64,000 nucleotides of DNA from a virus (lineage: Duplodnaviria; Caudoviricetes), in IMG/VR virus record IMGVR_UViG_3300045747_000505. One strand, given 5' to 3'. Within the stretch, counting starts at the first letter, position 1. Each line of letters begins with the position of its first letter. The position numbers and the translations under genes were made by a program. Positions 17,757 to 62,808 of this stretch are shown here, in pieces. The notes below the pieces were generated by a model. It was not told the origin of the DNA. It was given only the letters and a program-made list of their open reading frames with translations, and made no database searches.

Positions 17757-17965
17757 CCTGGCTCGCAGACGTCTCCAAGGATCGCCCGACCGGCGATGCG
17801 CTCGACAAGGTCATGGCTCAACGCGCCAAGCTGATCGCGCAAATCGAAGCCCTCAAGGCCTCGCCGTGTGGCAAGTCTCAGTCTGCCATCAACGGTCGCC
17901 TCGAGGACCTCACCGCGCTGGCCAAAAAGGTCACCGCTATTGATCGCAAGATCGGAAGAACATGA
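17753..17965 (+). CDS. Hypothetical coiled-coil protein
   Basis: AAGGA RBS, GTGA overlap. Confidence 0.55.
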   Translation: MTWLADVSKDRPTGDALDKVMAQRAKLIAQIEALKASPCGKSQSAINGRLEDLTALAKKVTAIDRKIGRT

Positions 17966-18243
17966 CCTCAGCTACTGACTTCGCATCGCTTGACCTGCTT
18001 GACCCACCAGCCGTTGTGGCTCGTGGCGCCGTGCTGCCAGGCGTGCCGAAGCCACCAGCAGCACGGCGCGCTGTACCGAAGGTTCAAGACCCGCGCTTCC
18101 CGCACATTCGGTTCCTCAAGAACGAAGGTTCGCTGCTGCGCGATTTGAACGACCGAATCGGGCCACAGGTCATCGCGTTCATTCCAACCGTCGCCATCAT
18201 GGGCGGTGTCGTCTTCGTCGCTCGTCACTTTCTATTCGGCTAG
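17962..18243 (+). CDS. Hypothetical membrane protein (ends in TAG)
   Basis: C-terminal TM; TAG is in frame with the next ATG. Confidence 0.6.
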   Translation: MTSATDFASLDLLDPPAVVARGAVLPGVPKPPAARRAVPKVQDPRFPHIRFLKNEGSLLRDLNDRIGPQVIAFIPTVAIMGGVVFVARHFLFG

Positions 18244-18246
18244 CCA

Positions 18247-18630
18247 ATGGCACGCTCCAATCTCACCGTCGCGCAGAAGGTCGTTGTCGTGGCGGCGATC
18301 GTCACGGTGTTTCTCACGCTGTTCGGCTGGTTCGTTCTTTGGTGGGATGGTATCTTCACCGGACTGAACCACTTCGGTCTGCCGTGGTGGGCAGCGCTGC
18401 TCTGTCTCATCGTGCTCTTTGTTCTGCTACCACGCCTCACAAGCTTCTGTTGCATGCTGCTTGGCGTCTGGACCGCCTACGTCCTTTGGGACTGGTGGTT
18501 CATCTTCGCGGTCTCGCTCTACATGCCAACCATCGCGACCTTCATTAAAGGTCTCGTCTTCAGTCTCATTGTCGCAGTCTTTGAAGTACTGCTAACCGTC
18601 GTGACCATCGTCTTTGGAAACAAATCATGA
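18247..18630 (+). CDS. Multi-pass membrane protein
   Basis: 3-4 hydrophobic segments. Confidence 0.7.
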   Translation: MARSNLTVAQKVVVVAAIVTVFLTLFGWFVLWWDGIFTGLNHFGLPWWAALLCLIVLFVLLPRLTSFCCMLLGVWTAYVLWDWWFIFAVSLYMPTIATFIKGLVFSLIVAVFEVLLTVVTIVFGNKS

Positions 18631-53221: not shown

Positions 53222-53895
53222 TGCCAACCGCCCAGCTTCGCTCGCTGGCTGCCAAGTCAGACAAGACTCTTGGTGACCTCGAGCGCTACTGGGCAGACGC
53301 CAAGGTTGAAGCTCATCACAAGTTCAAGAAGAAGGACAAGCACTTCTGGGCCTACGTCGTCGGTATCGTCAAGCGCCGCGCTGGGCTGAGCGAAGAGGAC
53401 ATCAGCTTCAAGACCTATCTGCTCCTCATCGAGGACGACAAGGCGCACGGCAAGGCTCTCGAGCGAACAGGCTTCTGGGGCAAGGCTGGTGCGGGTTGTA
53501 TCATTTTAGCTCGGGACACGGGAAGAATCTGCCTGCCGAAGCGAAGCAAGGACGTGGAGCAACCACACACTTGGGGAACTTGGGGTGGCGCTATCGACGG
53601 AAGAGAGGCGCCTAAGGCCGCTGCAGAGCGCGAGGTCCGTGAGGAAGCTGGATATACAGGCAAGCTCGAAATCGTTCCCCTGTACGTTTATAAGCATCCC
53701 AGTGGCTTCACCTACCACAACTTCCTGGCCATCGTGGACAAGGAGTTCGAGCCAGAGCTGAACTGGGAAACGTCGACCTACCGTTGGTGCTCGCCAACGA
53801 AGCTGCCGTCGCCGCTGCACTTCGGTCTGAAGGGTCTGCTTGCCGACGCCGCAAGCTGGCAGAAGATCAAAGACGCTCAACCTAAAAAGACGTAG
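53221..53895 (+). CDS. Nudix hydrolase with N-terminal helical domain
   Basis: Nudix box GGAIDGREAPKAAAEREVREEAG. Confidence 0.88.
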   Translation: MPTAQLRSLAAKSDKTLGDLERYWADAKVEAHHKFKKKDKHFWAYVVGIVKRRAGLSEEDISFKTYLLLIEDDKAHGKALERTGFWGKAGAGCIILARDTGRICLPKRSKDVEQPHTWGTWGGAIDGREAPKAAAEREVREEAGYTGKLEIVPLYVYKHPSGFTYHNFLAIVDKEFEPELNWETSTYRWCSPTKLPSPLHFGLKGLLADAASWQKIKDAQPKKT

Positions 53896-53924
53896 CCTGA
53901 AGACTGAGACATAGAGTAAAATAC

Positions 53925-54256
53925 AGACATGGGTGCTACAGCCATTCTGTAGTGATTGTTGTAATTCGGAGCAAGTTGAAGGATTCTGGACGCGGGTTCG
54001 ATTCCCGCCAGGTCCACCACAAAACACATACCGCCGGCTGTAGAATTCGGCAACACCTTAGGGACGATCCACGTGGTGTGTGTTTTGTAATGGGCCTGAC
54101 CTGGTCTCGACAGGGTTACGGAGATGCGCACACGCAACACGAGAGTCGACCGACGTAATCGGCGAAAACACGCTAAGTGCAAACGAAGCAAACTTCCGTC
54201 TGGCTGCTTAATACCCAGCTCACGGTGAGGCTAACCACCTTATAAAGCAACGGTGA
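53925..54256 (+). ncRNA. ssrA: Circularly permuted (two-piece) tmRNA; tag ANEANFRLAA*
   Basis: 3' acceptor piece GCGGGTTCGATTCCCGC-CAGGTCC-A-CCA ends at 54019 and precedes the 5' piece GGGCCTGAC-CTGGTCTCGAC at 54092; G3.U70 pair; tag frame 54179-54211; outer ends approximate. Confidence 0.9.
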
Positions 54257-54282
54257 GGACAGGACACTTCGGTGTCCTGTCC
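54257..54282 (+). terminator. Hairpin after tmRNA coding piece
   Basis: GGACAGGACAC-TTCG-GTGTCCTGTCC. Confidence 0.75.
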
Positions 54283-54306
54283 GCTATCATTTATACTGGA
54301 GACCCT

Positions 54307-54795
54307 ATGCGCAAGCTGCTCGCCGCTCTCATGCTCACCCTCTCGCTGGGCGCTGCTGCCCAGTCGGAGCCGCATGTTCAGATCGGCGCAGCAGACTTCA
54401 CGGTCTTCAAGGTCTATCCGAACTTTGCGCTGCTCTTCGACCGCGAGTCGATGCATGGTGATGCCAACACCGGCGACGCGGTGATGACGATCAAGATTCA
54501 CCTGAAGTCCCCAGACCCAAGGCTCGTGCCGAAGTTTCCGGTCAAGTTCCTCGTCAACACTCTCTTCATCGAGTGCGAGAAGGATCAAGTCACGGTGCTG
54601 GTCAGCCAGATGTATGACGATGAGAATGACCTCGTCGGCATTCGTCGATACTACCCGCCCATTTCGAACCCACACTCAGAAGGTGCGCCGGCCACTGAGG
54701 TCCTCGACTTCGCCTGCGCCTCGAATCCGAAGTACCCGAACAAGCGTAACACGCCTATAATTGTTACACCTGACGATGACCGGAATGGTGTATAA
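54307..54795 (+). CDS. Secreted protein (surface-adhesin-like small beta protein)
   Basis: Signal peptide MRKLLAALMLTLSLGAAA; two Cys. Confidence 0.75.
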   Translation: MRKLLAALMLTLSLGAAAQSEPHVQIGAADFTVFKVYPNFALLFDRESMHGDANTGDAVMTIKIHLKSPDPRLVPKFPVKFLVNTLFIECEKDQVTVLVSQMYDDENDLVGIRRYYPPISNPHSEGAPATEVLDFACASNPKYPNKRNTPIIVTPDDDRNGV

Positions 54796-54816
54796 TAGCC
54801 TCATGGAATCACAAAA

Positions 54817-54891
54817 GCGTCGTTAGCTCAATGGTAGAGTACGGGCCTCTAAAACCCAGGGTTATCGGTTCGATCCCGATACGACGCACCA
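54817..54891 (+). tRNA. tRNA with CUA anticodon (amber suppressor), tRNA-Lys-like body
   Basis: Acceptor GCGTCGT/ACGACGC-A-CCA, D-arm GCTC/GAGT, loop CT-CTA-AA (CTA 54849-54851), T-arm ATCGG-TTCGATC-CCGAT; anticodon stem has only 3 Watson-Crick pairs. Confidence 0.85.
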
Positions 54892-55617: not shown

Positions 55618-55764
55618 ACCTAAACAAATCGATGTACAAGTCCTAAGGACAGTGTACAATAGGAACTGTTGAGAAGCTCACAGTGGTGAGCAGTATCTTA
55701 GATAGTTGGCATAGACCGGGACCCCGTTGTCGCCCAGCCACAAACGACGACATCAACTAGTGAG

Positions 55765-56151
55765 ATGATCATGTAGATCCGCACTTCCAAAACCTACCTC
55801 TACGCAATCACACGCCGCGATCTCCCACTCGCGCAACAGGCTGTTCAAGCTGGCCACGCCGCCATTGAGCACGCTTACCAACATGGTCGTCCGCACGATC
55901 ATCATCCGTCGTACATCAAGCTGACGACGCGAGACAAGGCCGCTCTTCTCGAGCTTCAGGCCACGCTTGCCACGCACGGCATTCAAACCGCAGAATTTCA
56001 CGAGCCATACAAAGCTTGGGGCCTCACCGCAATCGCCTGTCTTCTCGGCGAGGAACAACGCTGTCTGTTACGACAGTTACAGCTTTGGACCACGCAGAAT
56101 GCTCAGGTTCGTGATACAATGGACACATCAACCACTCGGAGTTTCTCATGA
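55765..56151 (+). CDS. Peptidyl-tRNA hydrolase type 2 (Pth2)-like protein with in-frame TAG at codon 4 (missed by the ORF track)
   Basis: ATG ATC ATG TAG ATC CGC...; KTYLYAITRRDLPLAQQAVQAGHAAIE...FHEPY...GLTAIA; TGA overlaps the next ATG. Confidence 0.75.
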
Positions 56152-57344: not shown

Positions 57345-57397
57345 TCACAACCGTCCGCGCACTTCTAATAGCATTAGTTGGCAAATAAGGAATTGCA

Positions 57398-57490
57398 ATG
57401 ATCTAGGTAAACGCAGTCGCTCGTGGTCCTCCGAGGTTGAATGACACATTCACGGTTCATTCACTTCACATTTCAAGGATCACATCATGA
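57398..57490 (+). other. Amber-interrupted leader ORF (ATG ATC TAG ... TGA) coupled to the next gene
   Basis: AAGGA RBS at 57387; read-through frame has no other stop until TGA 57488-57490, which overlaps ATG 57487. Confidence 0.55.
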
Positions 57491-57873
57491 CCAAGCTCTA
57501 CGACAATCTCTACGCCGAGTTCTCCTTCACCTCCCGTGAGGAGTATCTCGAGGCATCCAAGCGCTGGAAGGCTGACTACGCTCAGCGCTCAGCGAACATT
57601 CGCACCACCCGTGCCGCCTTCAAGGCCGCGCAGCGTGAGGTCTCCAAGGCCGAGCTCGCGTTCGACGGCAAGCCGCTCTGGCACCTCGACTACGACAACC
57701 CAGCGCGCAAGGCTTGGGTTGCAGCGTCCAAGCCGATGGCCGAAGCCATGTACGCCCTTCGGGATCAGCGTCGCATGGCAGTGCTCATGCTCGAGGTTCG
57801 CTCTGGCATGAAGTGCGAGGCTGGCAATCAGCGTGAGCTGCGTCTTCAGGACGAAGCGCTGAAAGCGGCTTGA
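57487..57873 (+). CDS. Helical phage protein (SREEYL...WKADY type)
   Basis: AAGGA RBS; amphipathic helices. Confidence 0.75.
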   Translation: MTKLYDNLYAEFSFTSREEYLEASKRWKADYAQRSANIRTTRAAFKAAQREVSKAELAFDGKPLWHLDYDNPARKAWVAASKPMAEAMYALRDQRRMAVLMLEVRSGMKCEAGNQRELRLQDEALKAA

Positions 57874-62202: not shown

Positions 62203-62808
62203 ATGTCTAAATTTTACGCCTACATTTATAGAGACAACGAGGTTCCGTTTTATGTTGGTAAGGGAACAGGCAATCGTGCCTATCTTCATCTTACCGACCG
62301 AAGAGGATCACACTTTACAAATAGGGTTCAGCGTCTCGTAAGAGAAGGTCGAGCCCCGACAATAGAAATCATCGAAGCGCTGGACGAGGACCACGCCAAG
62401 TTTTTAGAAGTTTGTCTCATCGAGGTCATTGGTCGTGCCGACCTTGGCAAAGGAACATTGTTGAACCTAACCGATGGTGGCGATGGTAGAACAACTTGGT
62501 CTGAAGAACAGAAACGGCATCACTCTGAAAAAATGACGGGACAGAAGAGAACGGAAGAAACCAAAAGACTGATGTCTGAAGTACAATCGCAGATACCAAG
62601 ACAGAAGGCAAAACCAGGCGAAAAGAAACGAGGACCAGCGAAAGGAACGAAGTACGCAAATCGTGTCAACGGAACCTTTAGCGACGAACATCGACTAAAG
62701 TTGGCGCAATCTCAAACCGGAAAAACGCATTCGCCTGAGACCCGTGCCAAGATCGCAGAGACACGGCGGAAGACAGAAGAACGAAAGAAGATGTTACAGA
62801 CAACCTAG
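62203..62808 (+). mobile_element. Free-standing GIY-YIG homing endonuclease with NUMOD3-type repeats
   Basis: YAYIY...FYVGKGTGNR...H...GTLLNLTDGGDG; HSEKM, HSPETRAKIAE; A-rich. Confidence 0.85.

What the first reader, a model, noticed from the sequence alone, without database searches (positions are those of the whole stretch)
54817..54891. Amber-suppressor tRNA in a phage that is not globally TAG-recoded
Seen: CUA anticodon, its own GTTAC promoter, body resembling enterobacterial tRNA-Lys (G.GTCGTTAGCTCA...ACGAC.CACCA), and a weak anticodon stem (C27.A43, C31.A39). Long genes contain no internal TAGs and mostly end in TAA/TGA. Inferred: a low-efficiency, regulatory suppressor rather than a code change.
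Basis: partly seen in the sequence, partly recalled or inferred. Interest (0 to 1): 0.7.

Follow-up and report, generated by a model that had tools for sequence, protein, structure and literature searches.

The report
Phage stop-reading tRNA with dedicated targets
A giant freshwater phage that uses the normal genetic code carries a real UAG-reading tRNA. Its conserved job appears to be reading a UAG placed right after the start codon of a small tRNA-hydrolase-like gene 0.9 kb downstream, which gives the puzzling "suppressor tRNAs" of standard-code phages a concrete target.

Summary
The tRNA at 54817-54891 is real: ARAGORN calls it, it scores 60 bits against Rfam tRNA, its anticodon is CUA and its CCA end is encoded. 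The phage is not TAG-recoded.

Suppressor tRNAs in standard-code jumbo phages are already published or annotated (XacN1, RsoM2USA, Atu_ph07, GAP32). No target was known for them.

I find a target. A Pth2-fold gene at 55765-56151 opens ATG-TAG. Its homologues open RBS-ATG-(0-5 codons)-TAG in 26 other phage lineages that also carry a CUA tRNA, usually within 3 kb. Two phages with neither feature have an ordinary start.

One complete 343-kb phage has switched both sides together. Its Pth2-like and HD-like genes are gated by TGA, and its two tRNAs at the same position carry UCA.

Position 27·43 is Watson-Crick in 5 of 28 of these tRNAs, against 129 of 162 sense tRNAs. Published work links this trait to better read-through, not worse.

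So a regulatory or dedicated suppressor is supported, and "low efficiency" is not. Nothing here is experimental.

This scan has noted the tRNA/Pth2 pairing before, on this genome (e1-5322696) and on at least 46 others.

The parts
54817..54891 (+). Elongator-type tRNA gene with anticodon CUA (34-36), loop CUCUAAA, A73 and encoded CCA. The anticodon stem is reduced to three G-C pairs by C27.A43 and C31.A39.
   Evidence: ARAGORN; Rfam RF00005 60.1 bits; sequence; alignment of 30 related CUA tRNAs in which 17 of 19 cloverleaf pairs show compensatory changes.
54791..54796 (+). TATAAT -10-like box 20 nt upstream of the mature tRNA 5' end. It overlaps the TAA-TAG tandem stop of the upstream ORF. It is a candidate promoter of the tRNA; no matching -35 was found.
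   Evidence: Sequence. The sigma-70 scan did not call it. Similar GTG(N)TA(N)AAT boxes stand before other genes.
55765..56151 (+). Pth2-fold gene whose frame opens ATG ATC ATG TAG. The probable start is the ATG at 55771 and the TAG is at 55774-55776. No ATG, GTG or TTG follows for 115 codons, so the protein needs UAG read-through.
   Evidence: AlphaFold model pLDDT 85; the top 15 Foldseek PDB hits are all Pth2/Bit1. Profile search of the PDB puts Pth2 on top at E 0.004. Pfam PF01981 scores only 15.8 bits, below the cut-off of 23. An independent metagenome contig (X3) is identical over 55653-56068.
57398..57490 (+). Candidate second target in this window: a mini-leader ATG ATC TAG (TAG at 57404). 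Its read-through frame runs 27 codons into the start of the next gene (57487-57873).
   Evidence: I did not test it further. Earlier notes e1-5322698 and e1-5322691 treat it.
53884..54282 (+). Circularly permuted (two-piece) tmRNA gene with tag ANEANFRLAA. It is the conserved upstream neighbour of the suppressor tRNA in many relatives.
   Evidence: ARAGORN; Rfam RF01850 140.6 bits and RF04321 125.3 bits. The order tmRNA, then suppressor tRNA, then Pth2-like gene (all three within the fetched flank) recurs in 8 of 18 IMG/VR loci: 7 with a CUA tRNA, plus L228 with its UCA tRNAs. XacN1 also has a tmRNA beside its two CUA tRNAs, although its Pth2-like gene lies elsewhere.
53893..53895 (+). One of only three TAG terminators of + strand genes in the window; this one ends the NUDIX gene. 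Read-through would add 3 residues. The other two are at 62806 (+5 residues) and 18241 (would fuse with the next ORF).

Best explanation
The gene encodes a functional phage elongator tRNA that decodes UAG. It does not serve a recoded genome. It works as the private key for a very small set of phage genes that carry a stop codon immediately after their start codon.

In this phage the clear target is the Pth2-fold (peptidyl-tRNA-hydrolase-like) gene 0.9 kb downstream, which opens ATG-TAG. A ribosome that starts there meets UAG at codon 2. With release factor alone it ends at once and no protein is made. With charged tRNA(CUA) it inserts an amino acid at a non-conserved N-terminal position and makes the whole protein. 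The amino acid is most likely Lys, given A73, U35 and the Lys-like acceptor stem, but it is not determinable here. The mini-leader ATG-ATC-TAG at 57398 is a probable second target.

In relatives an HD-like partner gene is gated in the same way. Expression of this module therefore depends on the level, maturation and charging of the phage's own tRNA.

What is shown by comparison: the tRNA is real, the gates are conserved, and stop codon and anticodon covary. What is inferred: that read-through actually happens, which residue is inserted, and that the arrangement serves as a timing or licensing switch rather than a constitutive quirk.
For: (1) The tRNA is real and under selection. It scores 60 bits against Rfam. 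In 30 related CUA tRNAs, 17 of 19 cloverleaf pairs show compensatory changes, and CUA and its loop context are near-invariant. CUA tRNAs are each other's nearest relatives, for example the window against L051 at 83%.

(2) The target is conserved. Pth2-like homologues open RBS-ATG-(0-5 codons)-TAG in several groups. The GenBank records are GAP32, XacN1, Xoo-sp13, RAS14, ME3, RsoM2USA, Arash, pT24 and LR756511. There are 17 distinct IMG/VR contigs. The codons before the TAG differ between lineages. Each of these 26 lineages carries a CUA tRNA, often 0.1-3 kb away.

(3) Negative controls. S-CBWM1 (36 tRNAs) and RaK2 (about 10 tRNAs) have no suppressor tRNA, and their homologues start normally.

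(4) Covariation. The complete 342,591-bp phage G001 (locus L228) has ATG GAA TCG TGA on the Pth2-like gene and ATG ACA TGG TCG TGA on the HD-like gene. It has two tRNA(UCA) at the position where relatives have tRNA(CUA), and no CUA tRNA in the genome. TGA is still its commonest terminator, at 243 of 444 ORFs, so it is not code 4. Its UCA tRNAs resemble relatives' CUA tRNAs (0.73-0.77) more than its own sense tRNAs (at most 0.71).

(5) The tRNA acts in elongation. GAP32's HD-like gene has an internal TAG at codon 47.

(6) The window is standard-code.
Against: There is no experimental evidence that the tRNA is expressed, charged or reads UAG. No RNA data were available.

A genome-wide count of ATG-(0-3 codons)-stop before long ORFs shows no general excess of TAG over TAA or TGA in GAP32, XacN1, ME3 or RsoM2USA. 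The set of targets is therefore tiny, and the case rests on orthologue conservation.

In XacN1 an in-frame ATG lies 4 codons after the TAG, so that gene could be made without read-through.

LR745206 has the module with a gate-like TAG, but I found no CUA tRNA there. L285 and L286 have no tRNA within 4 kb.

G001 tolerates opal suppressors although most of its genes end in TGA. Either suppression is weak or context-dependent, or something is missing from this picture.

The purpose of the gate is not shown by anything tested.
Confidence: 0.8

Rival explanations
1. The tRNA serves partial (block-wise or late-gene) TAG recoding, as in code-15 crAss-like or Lak phages, with the recoded genes lying outside this 64-kb window.
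For: I could read only 64 kb of a genome of roughly 270-350 kb. Code-15 phages carry CUA tRNAs (PMC13037316).
Against: The window holds large structural-size and metabolic genes of up to 1584 aa without any in-frame TAG. Coding coverage is 94% under code 11 and does not rise when TAG is read as sense. Complete relatives with the same tRNA (XacN1, GAP32, RsoM2USA, G001) behave as standard-code.
Confidence: 0.05
2. The tRNA is a general read-through agent. It extends host or phage proteins that end in TAG, to disturb host proteins or make C-terminal extensions, with the neighbouring tmRNA coping with the consequences. On this view the early TAG in the Pth2-like gene is a side issue.
For: A tmRNA lies 0.5 kb upstream and is syntenic in many relatives. 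The papers on RsoM2USA and Atu_ph07 assume many terminal stops as targets. The TAG at 18241 would fuse two ORFs.
Against: The XacN1 authors read through all 18 terminal ambers and found no meaningful extensions. TAG ends only 2-3 genes in this window, and two of these have a back-up stop 3-5 codons on. This rival does not explain why the gate codon and the anticodon switched together in G001.
Confidence: 0.07
3. ATG-TAG is a start-stop mini-ORF that regulates the downstream frame without read-through, by stalling, reinitiation or peptidyl-tRNA drop-off as with lambda bar minigenes. On this view the tRNA is unrelated.
For: XacN1 and Xoo-sp13 have an in-frame ATG 4-5 codons after the TAG. Very short ORFs are known to cause drop-off, which Pth enzymes clear (my own knowledge).
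Against: In the window, GAP32, RsoM2USA and RAS14 no canonical start follows the TAG before conserved residues. The stop is always TAG and never TAA. It is TGA exactly where the tRNAs are UCA. The co-occurrence with the suppressor tRNA is near-perfect.
Confidence: 0.04
4. The tRNA is a decaying or accidental mutant of a sense tRNA (Lys or Trp type) with no function.
For: It has two mismatches in the anticodon stem. As a single sequence its fold is no better than shuffled controls (z -1.4).
Against: The anticodon, the loop and the mismatches themselves are conserved across 28 unique relatives with abundant compensatory changes. The synteny is conserved.
Confidence: 0.02

Closest known systems
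Suppressor tRNA genes reported in standard-code jumbo phages: XacN1 (two CUA; PMC5852040), RsoM2USA (CUA; PMC8504454), Atu_ph07 (UCA; PMC6102473). Also annotated as Sup, CTA or 'OTHER' in the GenBank records of GAP32, ME3 and pT24.
   Same: A phage-encoded CUA tRNA in a large phage that still uses TAG as a stop. The XacN1 tRNAs are 76% identical to this one and share the C31.A39 mismatch and a neighbouring permuted tmRNA.
   Different: Those papers found no target. [quoted passage not shown] RsoM2USA and Atu_ph07 assumed many terminal stops. Here a conserved start-proximal target and a stop/anticodon covariation are shown.
Genome-wide or late-gene stop-codon recoding in phages (TAG to Gln 'code 15', TGA to Trp 'code 4': crAss-like, Lak and other gut phages; PMC9523058, PMC10879173, PMC13037316)
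   Same: A phage-encoded suppressor tRNA makes otherwise untranslatable phage genes translatable, and this may time their expression.
   Different: In recoded phages, tens to hundreds of in-frame stops sit at sense positions in many genes. Here there are one to three stops per genome, placed at codons 2-7 (once at codon 47) of a specific two-gene module, and the genome keeps that stop as a terminator.
Stop-codon-reading tRNAs with a shortened (4-bp) anticodon stem, and laboratory amber suppressors with an optimised anticodon arm (PMC13092985 and its references 43, 79, 84-86)
   Same: An unpaired 27.43 top pair and the loop CUCUAAA, features that raise read-through in tested tRNAs.
   Different: Those are cellular tRNA-Trp(CCA) reading UGA by near-cognate pairing, or engineered E. 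coli tRNAs. Here the tRNAs are natural, fully cognate CUA tRNAs of phages, often with a second mismatch at 31.39.
prfB (RF2) autoregulation and other programmed in-frame stops
   Same: An in-frame stop early in a translation-factor-type gene makes its expression depend on the state of termination or decoding.
   Different: prfB is bypassed by a +1 frameshift and senses RF2. Here the stop is read by a dedicated tRNA. The switch from TAG to TGA in one lineage shows that the circuit is not tied to one release factor.

Membership tests
tRNA (Rfam RF00005), class I elongator | Cloverleaf with 7-bp acceptor stem, D arm, 7-nt anticodon loop with U33, a T arm with GTTCGA-type loop, and a score above the gathering threshold | tested here: met
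   60.1 bits against 29 over the full model; ARAGORN. The 1:72 pair is G-C and there is no initiator-type C1xA72, so it is an elongator.
Natural amber suppressor tRNA | Anticodon CUA at positions 34-36, kept by relatives | tested here: met
   Thirty related phage tRNAs keep CUA. The only switch is to UCA, together with TGA gates.
Natural amber suppressor tRNA | Is aminoacylated and inserts an amino acid at UAG in vivo | not testable with these tools
   No RNA run holds the stretch. Indirect support only: genes that are conserved, yet untranslatable without read-through.
   The best full-length GenBank phage matches are tRNA-Lys at 72-76%. XacN1 and Xoo-sp13 CUA tRNAs are closest to Lys-UUU at 0.80-0.82, but the LR756511 one is closest to Gln-CUG, and the anticodon arm equals that of the S-CBWM1 tRNA-Trp(CCA) arm but for one base. 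The discriminator is A in 19 of 26 and G in 6.
tRNA-Pyl (ARAGORN's label) | pylT-type structure and pyl genes | tested here: not met
   ARAGORN names any CUA tRNA 'Pyl'. This one has an ordinary class I cloverleaf that matches the general tRNA model end to end. No pyl genes turned up among the window proteins that I scanned, although most ORFs were not scanned.
Stop-codon-recoded phage (code 15 type) | Many in-frame TAGs at sense positions of conserved genes; gene calls improve when TAG is read as sense | tested here: not met
   One TAG in the window has coding-like frames on both sides. Coverage goes from 93.8% to 93.3% and ORF number from 77 to 71 with TAG as sense.
Pth2 peptidyl-tRNA hydrolase (PF01981) - the target gene | Pth2/Bit1 fold | tested here: met
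   Model pLDDT 84.9. Foldseek ranks 1-15 are all Pth2/Bit1 or close structural-genomics relatives, E down to 1.6e-5, TM-score 0.42-0.73 across the 15 (0.53 or higher for the top 13).
Pth2 peptidyl-tRNA hydrolase (PF01981) - the target gene | Passes the family's sequence threshold and keeps the catalytic residues | tested here: not met
   Pfam scores 15.8 bits, below the cut-off of 23. NCBIfam gives no hit for the window protein. The phage family's invariant residues (Q24, H27, E31, F-H-E-P 74-77, T84) do not include the GKGK lysine motif seen in 2zv3. Hydrolase activity is therefore unproven.

The most novel reading that the evidence does not exclude
Standard-code giant phages keep a 'private codon' lock. 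A dedicated suppressor tRNA with a deliberately loosened anticodon stem is the only key to a two-gene tRNA-salvage-type module (a Pth2-fold protein plus an HD-like protein) whose reading frames are closed by a stop at codons 2-7. Expression of the module therefore reports on the phage tRNA's own synthesis, maturation and charging. This would act as a built-in timer, or as a sensor of tRNA-pool integrity or of attack on tRNAs during infection. The lock can be re-keyed from UAG/CUA to UGA/UCA.
Probability: 0.35. Interest if true: 0.85.

Novelty: new variant of a known kind. Interest (0 to 1): 0.72.

Why it matters
Suppressor tRNAs in phages that do not recode their genomes have been reported for years without a known function. 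The XacN1 study searched explicitly for targets and found none, because it looked only behind terminal stop codons.

A conserved target at the very start of a specific gene pair, together with a coordinated TAG-to-TGA and CUA-to-UCA switch, turns that open question into a testable one in several cultured phages.

It also bears on annotation. The gated genes are missing, truncated or split in GenBank records of GAP32-like, RsoM2USA, RAS14 and Arash phages.

It offers a natural example of single-gene control by a private tRNA and stop-codon pair, a design used in synthetic biology.

Finally, it supplies about 30 natural cognate suppressors with 3-4-bp anticodon stems, relevant to current work on how anticodon-stem length tunes stop-codon reading.

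Tried and rejected
- **Whole genome.** None is held for this window. The tRNA is not in IMG/VR by exact pattern. The flanking protein 54253-54795 has no relatives there.
- **Close relatives in GenBank.** Megablast of the region against GenBank phages found only tmRNA fragments.
- **RNA evidence.** No RNA holder was listed. The metagenome contigs laid on the region cover the tRNA in only one run, which may be the source.
- **Genome-wide enrichment.** A count of start-proximal TAG against TAA and TGA in GAP32, XacN1, ME3, RsoM2USA, S-CBWM1 and the window showed no general excess. The idea of a large suppressor regulon was dropped.
- **The CUA tRNA as an initiator reading TAG as a start codon.** Rejected. 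The 1:72 pair is G-C, an in-frame ATG always precedes the TAG, and GAP32 uses the tRNA at an internal codon 47.
- **GTTAC as a -35 element.** Rejected on spacing.
- **Inferring the inserted residue.** The position in homologues aligned with GAP32's internal TAG is variable, so nothing can be inferred.
- **HD-like partner gene in this window.** None was found by tblastn. Pfam gives no family for the HD-like proteins; there is only a weak HDIG hint for XacN1.
- **Atu_ph07 (UCA suppressor).** It did not appear among homologues of either module gene, so it could not serve as a second covariation case.
- **More TGA/UCA phages.** A second IMG/VR search around G001 found none.
- **Alignment A1.** It was too diverse to seed a locus search.

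Full report
**1. The observation**

ARAGORN finds a 75-nt tRNA at 54817-54891 on the + strand with anticodon CTA. It labels the gene 'Pyl', as it does any CUA tRNA. Rfam's general tRNA model matches it end to end at 60.1 bits, against a gathering score of 29.

The sequence shows these features:
- acceptor stem GCGTCGT/ACGACGC, discriminator A73 and an encoded CCA;
- anticodon loop CUCUAAA;
- an anticodon stem in which only G28-C42, G29-C41 and G30-C40 pair, while C27.A43 and C31.A39 do not.

A perfect TATAAT lies at 54791-54796, 20 nt upstream. The promoter claim is therefore only half supported.

The best full-length matches among GenBank phage tRNAs are annotated tRNA-Lys at 72-76% identity, so the Lys resemblance is fair.

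**2. Context**

All genes of the window run on the + strand, and GC content is about 60%. The gene content is that of a jumbo phage: NAMPT, a NUDIX hydrolase, RNA and DNA ligases, multicopper oxidases, a circularly permuted tmRNA 0.5 kb upstream of the tRNA, and a tRNA array at the window's end.

No whole genome is held for this window. Metagenome runs that hold the stretch come from pond and wetland samples.

**3. The phage is not recoded**

- Crude + strand gene calls end in TGA 31 times, TAA 26 times and TAG 2-3 times.
- Of 136 TAG triplets on the + strand, only one (18241) has open, coding-like frames on both sides. TAA has five such sites and TGA two, which is what adjacent genes in the same frame give by chance.
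- Reading TAG as sense does not raise coding coverage: 93.8% becomes 93.3%.
- Two of the three TAG terminators have another stop 3-5 codons downstream.

**4. What is already known**

The XacN1 paper reports two CUA suppressor tRNAs in a standard-code jumbo phage. [quoted passage not shown] RsoM2USA (CUA; PMC8504454) and Atu_ph07 (UCA; PMC6102473) are reported in the same way, with terminal stops assumed to be the targets. The GenBank records of GAP32, ME3 and pT24 annotate such tRNAs.

A suppressor tRNA in a non-recoded phage is thus a known, unexplained observation. My literature searches found no paper that names a target.

**5. The lead and my test of it**

Earlier notes of this scan pointed to a gene at 55765-56151 that opens ATG-TAG. 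I checked this independently.

The frame reads ATG ATC ATG TAG ATC CGC and so on. No ATG, GTG or TTG follows for 115 codons.

The protein has the Pth2 fold:
- The AlphaFold model, built on 17 homologues, has pLDDT 84.9.
- The 15 best Foldseek hits in the PDB are all Pth2/Bit1-type proteins, with E down to 1.6e-5.
- A sequence profile puts archaeal Pth2 on top at E 0.004.

However, Pfam's threshold is not reached, at 15.8 against 23 bits. The family's invariant residues differ from the Pth2 lysine motif. I therefore call it Pth2-fold and do not claim that it is a proven hydrolase.

**6. Conservation of the gate**

In GenBank phages the homologue opens as follows:

| Phage | Opening codons |
|---|---|
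| GAP32 | ATG GCA CAA TAG |
| XacN1 | ATG AAG TAG |
| Xoo-sp13 | ATG AAG AAG TAG |
| RAS14 | ATG AAG TAG |
| ME3 | ATG ACT TAG |
| RsoM2USA | ATG TTG TAG |
| LR756511 | ATG ACT CAC TAG |
| Arash | ATG CTG TAG |
| pT24 | ATG AAA TAG |

Most are preceded by a Shine-Dalgarno sequence.

In IMG/VR I fetched 18 loci whose protein is 56-75% identical to the window's, plus 6 more. All but one open ATG (once GTG), then 0-5 codons, then TAG.

Each of the nine GenBank phages has a CUA tRNA. So do 17 distinct IMG/VR contigs, usually 0.1-3 kb from the gene and often behind a permuted tmRNA. In the record of Arash this tRNA is annotated as tRNA-Phe.

Three contigs with the gate show no tRNA in the sequence that I could fetch: L217, which is a short contig, and L285 and L286.

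Two phages lack any suppressor tRNA: S-CBWM1, with 36 tRNAs, and RaK2. Their homologues have ordinary ATG starts.

One exception remains unresolved. LR745206 has the module with a gate-like TAG, but I found no CUA tRNA among its roughly 60 tRNAs.

**7. Covariation**

Locus L228 lies in a complete, terminally repeated 342,591-bp phage (G001).

- Its Pth2-like gene opens ATG GAA TCG TGA.
- At the place where relatives carry one or two tRNA(CUA), between the tmRNA and the gene, it carries two class I tRNAs with anticodon UCA.
- The genome has no CUA tRNA and has a normal tRNA-Trp(CCA).
- TGA still ends 243 of its 444 long ORFs, the same pattern as in the window, so it is not a code-4 phage.
- Its second module gene also opens with a TGA gate, ATG ACA TGG TCG TGA.
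- Its UCA tRNAs are closer to relatives' CUA tRNAs (0.73-0.77) than to any of its own sense tRNAs (at most 0.71).

Four coordinated changes, in two gates and two anticodons, are hard to explain unless the tRNAs read the gates.

**8. A second target**

The second gated gene encodes an HD-like protein of about 190 aa.

- It is TAG-gated in RsoM2USA and in at least ten IMG/VR relatives.
- It is fused to the Pth2-like domain behind a single gate in XacN1, Xoo-sp13 and RAS14, and in the opposite order in pT24.
- It is ungated in ME3.
- It is interrupted by an internal TAG at codon 47 in GAP32, and GenBank splits it into fragments throughout the GAP32 group.

The internal site shows that the tRNA acts in elongation. 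I found no HD-like homologue inside this window. The window's second candidate target is the mini-leader ATG ATC TAG at 57398, which I did not pursue.

A genome-wide count of start-proximal stops shows no general TAG excess. The set of targets is therefore very small.

**9. The tRNA family**

Thirty CUA tRNAs align into a full cloverleaf in which 17 of 19 pairs show compensatory changes. The consensus anticodon stem has only three pairs.

Among 28 unique sequences, compared with 162 sense tRNAs of the same phages:

| Feature | CUA tRNAs | Sense tRNAs | Fisher p |
|---|---|---|---|
| Loop CUCUAAA | 24 of 28 | - | - |
| 27.43 Watson-Crick | 5 of 28 | 129 of 162 | 4e-10 |
| 27.43 mismatched | 15 of 28 | 14 of 162 | 1.5e-7 |
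| 31.39 mismatched (mostly C.A) | 13 of 28 | 7 of 162 | 4e-8 |

The sequences are related to one another, so these p values overstate independence. The 27.43 trait nevertheless recurs in most of 17 clusters defined at 80% identity.

PMC13092985 reviews experiments in which unpairing 27-43 in CUA-anticodon tRNAs raised read-through.

The amino-acid identity is unresolved. A73 in 19 of 26, U35 and the Lys-like acceptor stem favour Lys for this tRNA. This rests on established E. coli work on LysRS identity and on mischarging of amber suppressors, which I cite from my own knowledge. Other members look Gln- or Trp-like. Phages with two copies usually pair one A73 tRNA with one G73 tRNA. Because the codon sits in a non-conserved N-terminal peptide, the residue may matter little.

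**10. Mechanism and its limits**

The best-supported reading is a dedicated suppressor that licenses translation of the Pth2-fold gene, and of partners in relatives, by reading a stop placed directly after the start codon.

Shown by comparison:
- the tRNA is real;
- the gates are conserved;
- gate and tRNA co-occur;
- stop codon and anticodon covary;
- the tRNA is used in elongation.

Inferred:
- read-through actually happens;
- which residue is inserted;
- the arrangement is a switch for timing or for sensing tRNA state.

Why the gate sits at codons 2-7 is unexplained. An unsuppressed event there costs only a di- to hepta-peptide. Termination on very short nascent chains is reported to be poor (my own knowledge), which would favour the tRNA. 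How G001 avoids mass read-through of its many TGA terminators is an open problem for any strong-suppressor model.

**11. Verdict**

The tRNA itself is a new member of a known but unexplained class. The target and the covariation make it a new variant of suppressor-tRNA use in phages, undescribed in the literature that I could search. This scan has noted the pairing repeatedly, on this genome (e1-5322696) and on at least 46 others.

Noticed in passing
window 53884-54282: Circularly permuted two-piece tmRNA (tag ANEANFRLAA) just upstream of the suppressor tRNA. Of the fetched relatives' loci, 8 (7 with a CUA tRNA, plus L228 with its UCA tRNAs) hold the order tmRNA, suppressor tRNA, Pth2-like gene. 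XacN1 has a tmRNA next to its two CUA tRNAs, but its Pth2-like gene lies elsewhere in the genome.
   Followed up: partly
window 57350-57400: In four pond and wetland metagenome runs, contig depth jumps about 3- to 14-fold just before and over the ATG ATC TAG leader, and many contigs break there with unrelated sequence on either side. A short element seems to be shared by many different genomes.
   Followed up: no
window 17962-18630: The ORF 17962-18243 ends in TAG. One codon later the next ORF (18247-18630) starts in the same frame, with no obvious ribosome-binding site between them. Read-through would fuse them. Neither has a PHROG family.
   Followed up: partly
window 54787-54798: The ORF upstream of the tRNA ends with tandem stops TAA TAG, and these overlap the TATAAT box. 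Several other -10-like boxes of the window contain TAG (TAGAAT at 1189, 5387 and 16117), which accounts for many of the window's TAG triplets.
   Followed up: partly
L054 6339-6884 (GAP32 290482-291027): The HD-like gene of GAP32 carries an internal in-frame TAG at codon 47. It is annotated as two or three small ORFs in GAP32, CBB, BF, fHe-Yen9, the pEa_SNUABM phages, XbC2 and Kaldavass. The Pth2-like gene is unannotated or truncated in many of these records.
   Followed up: partly
L249 4310-4384 (Salmonella phage Arash): A tRNA annotated tRNA-Phe in the GenBank record has anticodon CTA by ARAGORN. It lies 1.3 kb from a gene annotated 'peptidyl-tRNA hydrolase' whose full frame opens ATG CTG TAG.
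   Followed up: yes
L228 4857-4933 (G001): The second tRNA(UCA) of the TGA-gated phage has two U.U oppositions in the middle of its anticodon stem. It may be an unusual suppressor or a decaying copy.
   Followed up: no
L213, L214, L218, L222, L224, L056: Phages with two suppressor tRNA genes usually have one copy with discriminator A73 (U73 in L222) and one with G73, together with different acceptor stems. This suggests two different charging identities for the same codon. L213 is the exception: both of its copies have A73.
   Followed up: no
L252 / LR745206.1 338197-339730: A 635-kb uncultured phage has the Pth2-like plus HD-like module with ATG AAC AAT TAG at its head, but ARAGORN found no CUA tRNA among its roughly 60 tRNAs. 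Intron-split tRNAs were not excluded.
   Followed up: partly
L278 4593-5573 (Tenacibaculum phage pT24): Here the Pth2-like and HD-like domains are fused in the opposite order to XacN1 (Pth2-like first), behind one ATG AAA TAG gate. The module therefore occurs split, fused N-to-C, and fused C-to-N.
   Followed up: partly
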